A stretch of 64,000 nt of DNA, from contig OZ024755.1 of assembly GCA_964016885.1 (NCBI GenBank), positions 17,856,001 to 17,920,000 on the forward strand, read 5' to 3'. Position numbers and translations under genes: made by a program. Numbering within the stretch: the stretch's first letter is position 1; the number at the start of each line of letters is the position of its first letter. This document shows, one piece after another, positions 29,100 through 62,718 of the stretch. The notes beneath the pieces are model-generated. The model saw only the letters and a program-made list of their open reading frames with translations. It ran no database searches and had not been told where the DNA came from. Origin of the DNA: Eledone cirrhosa (Eukaryota).

Positions 29100-31094
29100 A
29101 GTAGAACACTGGAGGGTTGTATCCATAATAGTAGAGCACTCAGTCCATGGGACGAGTTTGGTAGAAGTAGTTCCACAACAGTTAGTTCACCATACTGAGA
29201 ACAAATGTTTCACCTTATTCAGATCCTCAACTGTGTGTGTGTGTGTGTATGTAATAATAATAATAATAATGAAATTATTGTGTAAAGTGCTCAGGTGCAC
29301 TACAACTCGTCAAAGGTGTATGTATAGTACATAGAATAATACACAAATGTCAGGGAAGTACATGTGTGTATGTGTTAGCTGTAGTGTTGGCGGATCTCTG
29401 GAAGCATGGAGGCCTTAAAGGATGCAGTGTCTCGACAGCTAACAACTGATGCAGGTAGTTTGTTCCATGCTTCAGCAACTCTGAGCGTGAAAAAAATGTT
29501 TCCGAAAGTCATGGGAACTGTGCTGTTTTCTTACTTTGTGGGCATGTCCACGTGTGTTAGACACATGGAAATCAAAAAGGTACTCAGGGTTGTTGTTGGC
29601 AACATGGTTAACAATTTTGTGGGTGTTTACCAAGTCAGTTGCCAGGCGTCGGAGCTTCAATGTATCCATACCCAGGGAAGCAAGGCGCTCAGAGTATTGA
29701 TCAATCCAAGACTACAGTGGAAGGTACCATGCTATGTGACTGAATCCAAAACGATGAGGTTCTGAAGTGAACTCCTTAACCACGCAGCCATTTCTAATTT
29801 ACTATCTTTTCTATCCTATTTTTTCTCTCTCCTACTTCCTCTCTCTCCTTTCACAATATTGCATCTATTTCAACCTTCACTTATTTCTTTTTGTTTCCCA
29901 CCATTACTGTTATTGTTAGCTCTATATGTGACACTACGGTGTCTCTTGTTTCTTTCATTTCAGCTGTATGTTATTACAAAATCTAGCCTATTTATTACTG
30001 AAGATGGTGGAAGGAATTTTGAAAAAGCTCTGTTGAGTTTTGACTTGGATAGTTTGTTAATATTCAACGAGAACAGTGAAAACTACATACTGACTAAAGA
30101 GTCCAAGACTAAGGTACGTATAAATCAGTTTTATATCTGTTCGGTATGTTATAAATCAGTTTTATATCTGTCAGGTATGTACATCTGTAAGGTATGTTAT
30201 AAGTCAGTTTTATATCTGTAAGGTATGTTATAAATCAGTTTTATATCTGTCAGGTATGTACATCTGTAAGGTATGTTATAAGTCAGTTTTATATCTGTAA
30301 GGTATGTTATAAATCAGTTTTATATCTGTCAGGTATGTACATCTGTAAGGTATGTTATAAGTCAGTTTTATATCTGTAAGGTATGTTATAAATCAGTTTT
30401 ATATCTGTTAGGTATGTACATCTGTAAGGTATGTTATAAGTCAATTTTACATCTGTTAGGTATGTTATAAATCAGTTTTATATCTGTTAGGTATGTACAT
30501 CTGTAAGGTATGTTATAAGTCAGTTTTATATCTGTAAGGTATGTTATAAATCAGTTTTATATCTGTTAGGTATGTACATCTGTAAGGTATGTTATAAGTC
30601 AGTTTTATATCTGTAAGGTATGTTATAAATCAGTTTTATATCTGTTAGGTATGTACATCTGTAAGGTATGTTATAAGTCAGTTTTATATCTGTTCGGTAT
30701 GTTATAAATCAGTTTTATATCTGTAAGGTATGTACATCTGTAAGGTATGTTATAAGTCAATTTTACATCTGTTAGGTATGTTATAAGTCAGTTTTACATC
30801 TGTTAGATATGTATGTCTGTTTTATATCTGTTAGATATGTATGTCTGTTTTATATCTGTAAGTCATGAGGAAATTGGCTATGGTAAAGACACTTGCACAA
30901 GATGCCACGTGGCACTATTGAACTGAGGACCTCATGATTGCAAAGTGAACTTCTTAACCACTCAGCCATGCCTGTTTCTACTGAGTAATTCTAAATATAG
31001 GAGGACTGTATTTTGTTCATCAACCTCAAATGTTTTGGGTTAAAATCTGAAGGGTTTACTTTTGTAAAGTTTAGTTAATTCAGCTCTAGTTTAT

Positions 31095-31126
<32 letters not shown>

Positions 31127-34100
31127 GTGTTTGTGCAAGATGGAGACAGAGAGAGAAAGAAAGTAGGTTGTATTTTAAAACTTATTGTGTATACTTTCTT
31201 ACAGATGCTTTACATTTCAAAAGAGGGTGGAAGGAGTTGGGAAAATATTTCTTCAAATGTTAGTTTATTTTACTGGTAAGCATTTTTTCTCTTTATTTAT
31301 CACTTCTGCAAACATTAGTATCTTAACAAACTATACTTGTTGATTAAATTAACTCTATTAATATCAACCTTCCCAAAACCTCCACTGGTTCTATGAAAGA
31401 AAAAAATCACCAATTTAATAGGACCCTATCTCTATTAAAATCTCCCCACAAAATTTAATATAAGAATCTTTGGTTATGTTACATATACCACCTTAAAGTT
31501 AAAAATGAAATACCGATAAATTTGTTTTAAAAGCCGGTTCAATGTAGTAGAAGAATACAAAGGGCAAATGATGACAAATGAAACAAGTGTTAACTACATT
31601 ACTCTAAAAATGAAATAAGTTTAGTAAAACCCTTCAGAATTTGCCATTAAGTAGTTGAAATACTGTGTATTTCAATTTAATTCTGGACATGAATGGATTA
31701 ATTTCACTTGGTGGAATAGTATAAAGAATCATTGCGAGTGCAGTTAAAAGTAGAGTTTCAGATCTAATGTCTTGTAATACTTAGTTAGGTCTCTTTACAT
31801 TCTTCAGTTCAAATCTTAGGTTATTTTTGCCTTTCATTCTTCTGGTGTTGATAGAATAAAGGCCCTAGTTATCTTTGCCTTTCATTCTTCTGGGGTTGAT
31901 AAAATAAAGGCCCTGGTTCTCTTTGCTTTTCATTCTTCTGGGGTTGATAAAATAAAGGTCCTGGTTATGTTTGTCTTTCATTCTTCTGGGGTTGATAAGA
32001 TAGAATAGGGAGTACTCTTTAGTTTTTCATGATACAAGACAAGCTTACAAGTGTTGGTGCCACAATAAGATGCACCCAGTACACACCACACTGTCAAGTG
32101 ATTGGTAATTGAACAGAGACAATTTGGGGTCAAGGGGAACTTTTAGTCCTGCTGACAACCTCACTGGTGTTGGCACCACAATAAAATCCACTCAGTACAC
32201 TTTGTAAAGTAGTTGGTATTAAGAAAAGCATCCAGCCATAGAAACCATGCCATAAATGGAATATATGAGTAATAGGTCCTCTGACCTGTCTAGGAGGACA
32301 TTAACTTTAAATAAGAACTGATTCAAAACATGAGGATTTGTCCAACCAATTCCAATATAGAATAATGATGATTTTAAGGACAAGAAATAGTTATTACATT
32401 CTCAAATTAATTATCAGTATTCATAGACTAGTATTATTTGAAATACATTGTTCAAACTATAAATATTAGTTAGCAATAGTTTTAACCCTTTAGCATTTAA
32501 ACCGGCCAGAATTCTCTCACCTCTTTCTATTCAAACCGGCCATAACTGGCCACTCATACTGACGTTAAGGTGTTGTTCTCAAAATAAATAACATCAAAAT
32601 CTCATAGATTCGATATTATGTGAGATAATTATATGAGATAAAGCCTTTACCACAAAAATGTAATTGTATATATAGAGTAATGTAAATGCTAAAGGGTTAA
32701 AAGGCAGTGAATCGGCAGAGTTGGTAGAACATCTGATAGAATGCTTTGCTGTATTCATTGCGGCTCTTTGATCTCAAATCCAGTTCAAGGTCAACTTTGC
32801 CTTTCATCCCCTCAAAGTCGCTAAAAAAAAGTACCAGTCTAGTACTGGGGTAAATTCTTCCTCTATATCTCTTTCTCACTTTCTATCCTCTGGAGGAAAT
32901 CTGCTGTGTTCAGACCTAAAGATGTATGGACTCCACCAGGCTTTAAAGTGCCCAAGAAATGCTGTATGCCACTATGGCAGCCCTACAACACAATCTGGAA
33001 TTACAGAACTATACCATACTATACGGTGGAGGCACATGGCCTAGTGGTAAGGGTCTTGGACTTACGATCATAATGTTGTGGGTTCGATTCCTGGGTTGCG
33101 TGTTGTGTTCTTGAGCAAAACACTTCATTTCACGTTGCTCCAGTATACTCAGCTGAAAATGAGTACTATCAATAGCTGGGAGTTTAACCCTGCAATGGAC
33201 TGGCGTCCTGTTCAGGGGGAAGTCTTGTACTCTCAGTCGCTTCATGCCATGAAACCAGGATAAGCACCAGCCAAATGAGCCTTCTGGCTTAAGACAGACT
33301 TTAAACTTTTAGACCATACTATACCAGTAATGGCTTTCTGACTAGCAGAAAGTAACTCTATTCTAGATGTTACATATTTTGTCATTTTCTATTTGTTTTT
33401 GTTTTGTTTATATTTACAGGTCAACTTCAAAAAATGATAAAAATTACACTATCTACATATCAGAGACGAATGCATCACATACAACAAGATGTAAGTTTTA
33501 CTTGTTTAATAAATAAATAAGAAAAAAGAAATCTGTCCTGACCCTTGGGGTTCATGAGGCTGATGATTATCCAGGTTTCATTGACATTTGGAAGCTCATC
33601 AGGCGAGTGCTTATAAGGGTTTTAGTGGTGTTAAGCGACTGAAAGTACAAGACCTCCCTCCCCGTTTTGTTCAGGATACCTGTCCATCGCAGACTTAATC
33701 CTCAGCTGAACATGAAATGAAATTTTTTGCTCAAAAGCCCAACGCACAACCCTATCCATGAATAGAACCCCAACAAAACTTGGCAGTTGTTTGCTCCAAC
33801 ACAATAACCACAAGGCCACATGTCTTCATAAGCGCAGTTGTTTATGTTATTGGATGTGTTAAAGGCTTCCATGATGTTGGATCAGAATATTGTTAATGTT
33901 AGCAACATTGTCTCATTCAGATATGAATGATTGCATTGAAACCTGACAAAAAGTACCCAGTCCACTCTGTAAAGTGGTCATTTTGGTGCCTTGATAAAAG
34001 TTCCCAGTCGTTGCTGTAAATGTGGTTGTTTTGGTGCCATGGCAAAAGTGCCCAGTCCACACTGTAAAGTTGTCATGTTGGTGACATGACAAAAAGCGCC

Positions 34101-61729: not shown

Positions 61730-62718
61730 GAAGATACACAACAAGGACTTTCCTCAACAAATATACATAGAATTTACCCTAGAGATGTGGATTTTTATCT
61801 GGAAGATGTACAGAGGGGATTTTCCTTCCAAGATTTACAAATTGGATTTCAACATGGAGGTATATAGATTGGTAATATACTTTGATGTTATACAAAATGG
61901 GATCTTAAATGTAGCATGGATTTCATCTTGCTTAAAGCGTATATTTTACTTTGAAGATATAGACTGGAGTTTACTTTGGAGATATGCAAGCAGTAGATTT
62001 TACCTTGGAGATATACAGGTAATGGATTTTCTTGAATTTATACAATGTGGAGTTTACCTTGACCACATACAGAGGTGATTTTACCTTCGAGATATAAATA
62101 GTTGATTGTACCTTGGAGATGTACAGACTGGAGTTTACCTTCTTTGTGTACAGGCTTGATTGTACCTTGAATATATATATATATATAGAACGGTTTATAC
62201 TGTGCAGATAAACACAGTGAATTTTTTCCTGGGAGATATATTATTGAATTTTACCTTTGAGTTATAAAGAGGATTTTACCTTCCAAGTATACAATGTGGA
62301 TTTTACCTTGGAGATATACATATTGTATTTTCGTTGACAGACATACATGGTAGACATACAAATACAGTAGATTTTACCTTGGAGATACAAAGTTGATTTT
62401 ACCTTCAAAATATACTGATTCTATTGTAACTTTGAATATACACCATGCTGATTTTACCTGAAATATCTATAGAGAGGATTACACCTGGGAGAAATAATGT
62501 CCTAGAATTTACCTTGGAATTGAATTGAATGGATTGGATTTTACCTTGGGTCTCTAAAGTGAGTTTTACCTTTGATTTCTACTGAGCGGATTGCACCTTA
62601 AAGATTTGACATGTTGATTTTATCCTGGAGATATACAGAGTGGAATTTATCATGCTGCCTTATGAGGTAAGTTTTACTTTGAATGTATAGAAAATGATTT
62701 TTACCTTGAAGATGTAGA
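61730..62718. repeat. degenerate ~30-bp tandem array
   Basis: Recurrent GGATTTTACCTTGGAGATATACA motif over about 1 kb. Confidence 0.8.

What the first reader, a model, noticed from the sequence alone, without database searches (positions are those of the whole stretch)
30111..30862. Tandem array made by amplifying the exon-5 splice donor
Seen: the first unit begins at the real donor AAG|GTACGT (GT at 30114). Later units carry mostly (A/C/T)AG|GTATGT, about 25 donor-like sites in about 660 bp. Two are in frame with no stop: 30144 (TCG|GTATGT, +10 aa VRINQFYICS) and 30192 (+26 aa); a stop follows at 30219-30221. Many sites read TTTTATATCTGT(C/T)AG|GTATGT, an acceptor-like AG fused to a donor, as in recursive-splicing ratchet points. 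Inference: a copy-number-variable U1 decoy or alternative-donor ladder that could tune sortilin output through NMD or insert Cys-containing loops into the propeller.
Basis: partly seen in the sequence, partly recalled or inferred. Interest (0 to 1): 0.75.

Follow-up and report, generated by a model that had tools for sequence, protein, structure and literature searches.

The report
Splice-donor minisatellite in octopod sortilin
A short piece spanning the end of an exon and its splice signal is copied 25 more times into the next intron of an octopus-type sortilin gene, but the one spliced transcript found is cut at the first, genuine signal, so this is most likely an ordinary example of a repeat type already known from human and lancelet genes.

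Summary
The array is real: 30110-30862, 28 units of 31/31/17 bp forming a 79-bp higher-order repeat, holding the true sortilin exon-5 donor (30114) and 25 donor copies; its core word occurs nowhere else in the genome. The functional reading is not supported. One spliced contig (2,261 nt, depth 177, run X1) joins 30113 directly to exon 6 at 31205, and no X1 contig lies on the first three copied donors; 12 of 12 alignable cephalopod sortilins have no insertion there. The AG|GT 'ratchet' look follows from copying the exon's last bases (TAAG flanks both ends); the intron is 1.1 kb and every array AG has another AG 15-19 nt upstream. Splice-site-spanning arrays were no commoner than chance at 194 kinase exon matches (1 seen, about 2.4 expected). 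It is a new member of a known kind: human F7, 6-16, CBS, ABCA7 donor VNTRs and amphioxus 'mirages'. This scan has reported the same kind before, in this genome and others. Rare use of nearby donors, re-splicing and copy-number variation remain untested.

The parts
29964..30113 (+). Sortilin coding exon 5 (150 nt, phase 0-0)
   Evidence: tblastn with cephalopod sortilins; X1 contig covers 29962-30113 and leaves at both splice sites
30111..30121 (+). Authentic intron-5 donor AAG|GTACGTAT (GT at 30114), 9 of 11 matches to U1; the only site in the array pairing at both +7 and +8
   Evidence: used in the X1 contig
30110..30862 (+). Minisatellite of 28 units whose first unit spans the exon 5/intron 5 boundary
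   Evidence: core 28-mer found 14 times in the genome, all here
30144..30806 (+). Core with 25 donor copies; 31+17+31-bp higher-order unit, order ABCDBCDBCDECFECDECDECGHCFI
30807..30862 (+). Two degenerate 28-bp tail units without a GT donor
30110..30113 (+). Left TAAG (last four exon bases), likely seed microhomology
   Evidence: sequence; role inferred
30859..30862 (+). Right TAAG closing the array, likely seed microhomology
   Evidence: sequence; role inferred
30144..30145 (+). Nearest copied donor TCG|GT: in frame (+10 aa) but weakest (6 of 11)
   Evidence: no X1 contig
30175..30176 (+). Copied donor CAG|GTATGTAC: as strong as the true donor (9 of 11), frameshifting (+61 nt, stop in exon 6)
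   Evidence: no X1 contig
30192..30193 (+). Copied donor AAG|GT: in frame (+26 aa), 7 of 11
   Evidence: no X1 contig
30219..30221 (+). In-frame TAA that closes every longer extension
30114..31204 (+). Intron 5, 1,091 bp, about two thirds of it the array
   Evidence: junction in X1 contig
31205..31275 (+). Sortilin coding exon 6 (71 nt)

Best explanation
The array is an intronic minisatellite whose first unit spans the sortilin exon-5 splice donor; it likely arose by slippage between two TAAG words and is likely neutral, because the spliced transcript seen is cut at the first donor. Steps: (1, shown) the unit starts with the exon's last four bases TAAG and the array ends in TAAG; (2, inferred) slippage or unequal exchange between those 4-bp repeats, about 30 bp apart, duplicated the segment, so each new junction reads AAG|GT automatically; (3, inferred) an internal 14-bp deletion made the 17-bp unit, and the 31+17+31 block was then amplified and partly homogenised, leaving diverged first and last units; (4, shown for one sample) the mature mRNA uses 30114; (5, inferred from F7 minigenes) the exon-proximal donor wins by position, helped by its extra +7/+8 pairing with U1 and by the next copy being the weakest; (6, inferred) any rare slip to most copies would give a premature stop and be cleared by NMD, so the array is tolerated.
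For: X1 contig, 2,261 nt, depth 177, runs exon 4-5-6-7 with the junction 30113/31205; it is the only X1 record laid on 29880-30222 (1 of 1) and the only one on exon 6. No insertion at the junction in 12 of 12 alignable cephalopod sortilins. TAAG at both ends and unit order; short flanking repeats as minisatellite seeds (PMC6947457 passage citing Haber and Louis 1998). F7: only the most upstream of identical donors is used, and adding or deleting monomers did not change donor choice (PMC1557585); amphioxus mirages do not disturb splicing (PMC3087553 passage). Frequency: 142 minisatellites in 799 kb around kinase exons (1.78 per 10 kb, median unit 34.5 bp); 1 array spans a splice site at 194 exon matches versus about 2.4 expected from density.
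Against: RNA evidence is one assembled contig from one sample whose kind is not on record; Logan contigs drop rare variants, so minor isoforms are not excluded. [quoted passage not shown] In 6-16 and CBS two nearby copies are used (PMC1557585 introduction) and in ABCA7 the second unit's donor is used (PMC5954066 passage). The seed microhomology is 4 bp, shorter than the 5-10 bp cited. Position-based donor choice was shown in mammalian cells, not molluscs. Arrays starting within 60 bp of exon ends were somewhat over-represented in my first count (7 versus 2.0 expected), so placement near junctions may not be fully random.
Confidence: 0.8

Rival explanations
1. Leaky proximal donors: a minor share of transcripts uses 30144, 30175 or 30192, giving +10 or +26 aa loops or an NMD-sensitive frameshift, possibly scaling with array length as in ABCA7.
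For: Copies are donor-grade; two keep the frame; precedent in 6-16, CBS and ABCA7.
Against: No X1 contig on 30114-30222; no insertion in 12 of 12 cephalopod proteins; the nearest copy is the weakest (6 of 11); F7 copies silent and copy number without effect.
Confidence: 0.14
2. Recursive re-splicing ladder: AG|GT sites in the array act as zero-length exons so that the intron is removed in steps, leaving the same mRNA.
For: 23 of 25 copies read AG|GT; 15 of them score 3.9-6.8 on an acceptor matrix built from the gene's own 18 acceptors, around or above the 95th percentile (4.2) of 2,170 AGs in the gene span. The mature junction cannot exclude it.
Against: Intron is 1,091 bp; recursive splicing is described for introns over 10 kb with removed segments of about 2 kb or more (PMC8758631 passages). 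All 25 array sites have another AG 15-19 nt upstream, whereas all 18 true acceptors have none within 24 nt; 14 of 18 true acceptors score above the best array site (6.8) in leave-one-out. Neighbouring sites are 17-31 nt apart. The AG is explained by the duplicated exon end.
Confidence: 0.03
3. U1 decoy or U1-loading platform maintained for an effect on splicing rate or on premature polyadenylation of sortilin.
For: 25 U1-complementary sites within 660 nt.
Against: No conservation evidence; unique young-looking array (96% matches); F7 monomer deletions and insertions were without effect; much larger arrays of this kind are reported elsewhere in this genome by earlier, unchecked notes.
Confidence: 0.03

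Closest known systems
Human F7 intron-7 37-bp VNTR (Borensztajn et al. 2006, PMC1557585; parts 1-3 of 6 read: abstract, introduction, most results)
   Same: First monomer holds the last four exon bases plus the intron start, so the donor is reiterated downstream; only the most upstream donor is used.
   Different: F7 has 5-9 identical monomers and proven length polymorphism; here 25 copies in a 31/17/31 higher-order repeat, the true donor differs from its copies (GTACGT versus GTATGT), and polymorphism is unproven.
Human 6-16 (IFI6), CBS IVS13, LMNB2 and PDGF donor-spanning minisatellites (known to me only through the introduction of PMC1557585)
   Same: 6-16 has 25 pseudo-donors after the true one, the same number as here; CBS has 15-20 monomers; LMNB2 and PDGF use only the true donor.
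   Different: 6-16 and CBS use two proximal copies as well; no such use is seen here in one contig.
ABCA7 intron-18 25-bp VNTR (De Roeck et al. 2018, PMC5954066; passages read)
   Different: There it is demonstrated and tied to length and disease risk; here not observed.
Amphioxus 'mirage' minisatellites (Adh3, BflGb6, BflGb9; PMC3087553, passages read; Canestro et al. 2002 only as cited there)
   Same: [quoted passage not shown]
   Different: Different phylum; globin units are 150-160 bp with long exon parts, here only four exon bases; length instability shown there, not here.
Recursive splice sites / ratchet points (review PMC8758631, passages read)
   Same: AG|GT motif preceded by some pyrimidines.
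   Different: Those lie singly, kilobases apart, in introns over 10 kb and have strong acceptors; these are 17-31 nt apart in a 1.1-kb intron.

Membership tests
Splice-junction-spanning minisatellite ('mirage'; F7/6-16/CBS type) | Head-to-tail array with unit of 10-100+ bp | tested here: met
   28 units of 17-31 bp; 79-bp period, 9.0 copies, 96% matches
Splice-junction-spanning minisatellite ('mirage'; F7/6-16/CBS type) | First unit spans a true exon-intron boundary | tested here: met
   Array starts at 30110, exon 5 ends at 30113, junction confirmed in X1 contig
Splice-junction-spanning minisatellite ('mirage'; F7/6-16/CBS type) | Splice signal reiterated in the intron | tested here: met
   25 copies, 6-9 of 11 matches to own U1
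Splice-junction-spanning minisatellite ('mirage'; F7/6-16/CBS type) | Authentic site is the main one used | tested here: met
   One contig, one sample; minor forms not visible in contigs
Splice-junction-spanning minisatellite ('mirage'; F7/6-16/CBS type) | Length polymorphism (VNTR) | tested here: inconclusive
   Only one DNA sample covers it; CAG block at 2.0-2.5x flank versus 3.0 expected is a weak hint of a shorter second allele
Recursive splice site (ratchet point) | Juxtaposed AG|GT | tested here: met
   23 of 25 copies
Recursive splice site (ratchet point) | Host intron very long (over 10 kb), segments of kilobases | tested here: not met
   Intron 1,091 bp; sites 17-31 nt apart
Recursive splice site (ratchet point) | Strong acceptor with AG-free zone | tested here: not met
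   Best score 6.8, below 14 of 18 true acceptors; upstream AG at 15-19 nt in 25 of 25 versus at least 25 nt in 18 of 18 true acceptors (small matrix)
Recursive splice site (ratchet point) | Exon-to-site junctions in nascent RNA, partial lariats | not testable with these tools
   Only assembled contigs of one RNA-like run were on hand
Recursive splice site (ratchet point) | Conservation across species | not testable with these tools
   No relative genomes held

The most novel reading that the evidence does not exclude
The 23 AG|GT units form a re-splicing ladder in a short intron: exon 5 is first joined to an array AG, regenerating a donor, and the intron is removed in steps that leave a normal mRNA, with step number set by array length. 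A repeat-born, mRNA-silent recursive ladder in a 1.1-kb intron would be a new way for recursive sites to arise, and the spliced contig cannot exclude it.
Probability: 0.03. Interest if true: 0.75.

Novelty: new member of a known kind. Interest (0 to 1): 0.15.

Why it matters
As it stands, little: it extends the F7/'mirage' pattern to a cephalopod sortilin gene and agrees with first-donor choice. It has one modest use as a natural test case: three downstream copies pair with U1 as well as the true donor yet the transcript seen ignores them, so it could test whether position-first donor choice, shown in mammalian cells, holds in molluscs. It would matter more if deep RNA showed length-dependent leakage (an ABCA7-like dial on a neurotrophin and lysosomal sorting receptor; that role of sortilin is recalled, not from a call) or re-splicing intermediates.

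Tried and rejected
No RNA holder was listed as such; X1's kind is not on record and I read it as RNA because its contig lies on exons only and joins them. Dispersed satellite or transposon origin: rejected, the core 28-mer has 14 matches, all in this array. Assembly artefact: rejected as far as one sample allows. Genome-wide count of AGGTAAGT ladders (7,832 matches versus 855 control) is not usable as enrichment: matches overlap within arrays, many listed ones are AGGT microsatellites and only the first 100 (contig C1) are listed. Of 6 non-microsatellite ladders fetched from that list, one (L015) looks exon-anchored by eye and none could be confirmed by homology. My first kinase-exon count used a filter that dropped higher-order arrays, including this one; it was redone with a positive control. 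Paper search for octopus + minisatellite + intron + splice site gave one unrelated review, seen as a listing only; the library lacks most subscription papers, so this is no proof of absence. No structure was predicted: no insertion isoform was seen to model. No supplements were read.

Full report
Setting. The window lies on contig C15 of a 3.0-Gb genome. An exon at 41469-41735 matches Argonauta hians and Octopus vulgaris sortilin at 87% and 82%, so the animal is an octopod. tblastn with these proteins maps about 20 coding exons on the + strand from 11303 to 51666. The fifth is 29964-30113 and the sixth 31205-31275; intron 5 is 30114-31204, 1,091 bp.

Observation. Tandem Repeats Finder reports a 79-bp period, 9.0 copies, 96% matches from 30110. 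Split at donors, the array has 28 units: a 30-bp first unit, sixteen... in full, 17 further units of 31 bp, 8 of 17 bp and two degenerate 28-bp tail units without GT, in the order ABCDBCDBCDECFECDECDECGHCFIJK. It holds the true donor and 25 copies: 14 AAG|GT, 6 TAG|GT, 3 CAG|GT, 2 TCG|GT. GGTAYGT occurs once in the rest of the gene span. The core 28-mer has 14 exact matches in the genome, all inside the array.

Is it in the DNA reads? Runs X2-X4 (one sample, possibly the assembled one) cover the flank at 10.9, 12.4 and 6.9 and array contigs at multiples of that. Against copy numbers counted in the assembly: 1.5-1.8x observed for 1.74 expected; 3.5-4.0x for 4.1 (taking the one-mismatch contig to be the TAG variant, an inference); 2.0-2.5x for 3.0 (CAG variant). 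This argues against an artefact; the last ratio is a weak hint of a shorter second allele. Contig depth is not a copy number.

Which donor is used? Run X1 (kind not on record, another sample) yields a 2,261-nt contig of depth 177 that lies on exon 6 only, with loose ends reading the end of exon 5 and the start of exon 7, and on exon 5 only, leaving at 30113 into exon 6 and entering from exon 4. It is the only X1 record laid on 29880-30222; none lies on 30114-30222, which holds donors 30144, 30175 and 30192. Contigs drop rare variants, and this is one sample, so the result shows the dominant form only. At protein level, 12 of 12 cephalopod sortilins that align on both sides have no insertion at the junction; of the 22 proteins examined, 8 vertebrate ones did not align reliably, one was a fragment and one unnamed protein was 2 residues shorter there.

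Donor strength. The genome's own U1 (42 matches) gives the 11-base target. The true donor matches 9 of 11 and is the only site pairing at both +7 and +8; the nearest copy is the weakest (6), most copies match 7-8, and three CAG copies match 9 with a better duplex energy (-9.7 versus -8.3). The gene's 17 mapped donors match 5-9. So the copies are plausible donors, and strength alone does not explain their silence; position does, by analogy with F7.

Ratchet reading. 23 of 25 copies read AG|GT. On a matrix from the gene's 18 acceptors, the 15 long-unit AG sites score 3.9-6.8 and the 8 short-unit sites below zero; 14 of 18 true acceptors score higher than 6.8 in leave-one-out. Every array site has another AG 15-19 nt upstream, while all 18 true acceptors have none within 24 nt. 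Recursive splicing is described for introns over 10 kb with segments of about 2 kb upward (PMC8758631, passages). The AG needs no special cause: the array begins with the exon's last bases TAAG and ends in TAAG, so slippage between these words would create AAG|GT at each junction (inferred; seeding by short flanking repeats is described in PMC6947457, passage citing Haber and Louis 1998, for 5-10 bp repeats). Re-splicing would leave the same mRNA, so the contig does not exclude it.

Is the position special? I took 89 exon-sized Pfam kinase matches in 80 stretches of 10 kb (from 138 matches; 30 top rows, 14 long rows, 4 weak rows and 1 stretch left out) and added 105 matches from my own looser profile (194 in all, 155 strong). 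With a filter that recovers the sortilin array, there are 142 minisatellites in 799 kb, median unit 34.5 bp, about 0.6% per junction or 2.4 expected over 388 match ends. Six arrays touch a match; by eye one spans a splice site, an acceptor array in L079, and none a donor. Not all match ends are splice sites, so this is rough, but no enrichment is seen; a gene with 35 mapped junctions has about a one-in-five chance of such an array. Against this, arrays starting within 60 bp of exon ends were over-represented in the first count (7 versus 2.0).

Known cases. PMC1557585 (parts 1-3 of 6 read) describes the F7 intron-7 VNTR whose first monomer holds four exon bases; only the most upstream donor is used, stronger downstream copies compete only when perfect, and adding or removing monomers changes nothing. 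Its introduction lists 6-16 (25 pseudo-sites, two used), CBS (two used), LMNB2 and PDGF (none used); I did not read those originals. PMC5954066 (passages) shows the ABCA7 VNTR beginning at the donor GT, with one-unit retention causing a frameshift. PMC3087553 (passages) names such repeats 'mirages' in amphioxus and reports normal splicing. A search for a cephalopod report found none, in a library lacking most subscription journals. Earlier notes of this scan list 25 similar findings in at least 13 genomes and larger donor and acceptor arrays in this genome; they are unchecked and gave me the 'mirage' lead only.

Verdict. Real, correctly described, and a new member of a known kind. Most likely a neutral donor-spanning minisatellite (0.80); minor leak to near donors 0.14; re-splicing 0.03; selected U1 platform 0.03. 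Interest 0.15.

Noticed in passing
L079:7050-7350 (G000:C15:13219203-13229193, minus strand): Acceptor-side mirage: about 8 units of 37-38 bp ending TTTTACAG|A.., copied from the intron end and first exon bases of a kinase exon (…RAVDIWAVG…); the last copy is the one in frame with the exon.
   Followed up: partly
L015:3853-4175 (G000:C1, near 202,752,600): Degenerate 32-bp array of AAG|GTAARTAT donors directly after a possible 51-nt exon (open frame DLLLFLCREGEDGKVGK); probably another donor mirage, exon unconfirmed.
   Followed up: partly
L017:3701-9401 (G000:C1, near 421,956,300): At least 5.7-kb array, about 194 copies of a 30-bp unit, 147 perfect AGGTAAGT; no exon recognised upstream.
   Followed up: partly
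window 62076-62331, minus strand: Degenerate 27-bp array with AAGGTAAAAT in most units, downstream of and antisense to sortilin; no exon identified.
   Followed up: partly
window 30114-30121: The true donor has a CpG (GTACGT) where all 25 copies have TpG plus one extra T; one change before amplification would explain it.
   Followed up: no
G000:C2:180,973,544-180,995,099 and C1128: U1 snRNA genes in tandem with a period of about 2,674 bp.
   Followed up: no
P0002, P0013-P0016: Octopus vulgaris and O. sinensis each have more than one sortilin-like record on one chromosome, suggesting a local duplication or split models.
   Followed up: no
L076:4624-7427, L104:5256-6119, L109:1-626: A shared 60-72-bp minisatellite family occurs in introns of three different kinase loci.
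   Followed up: no
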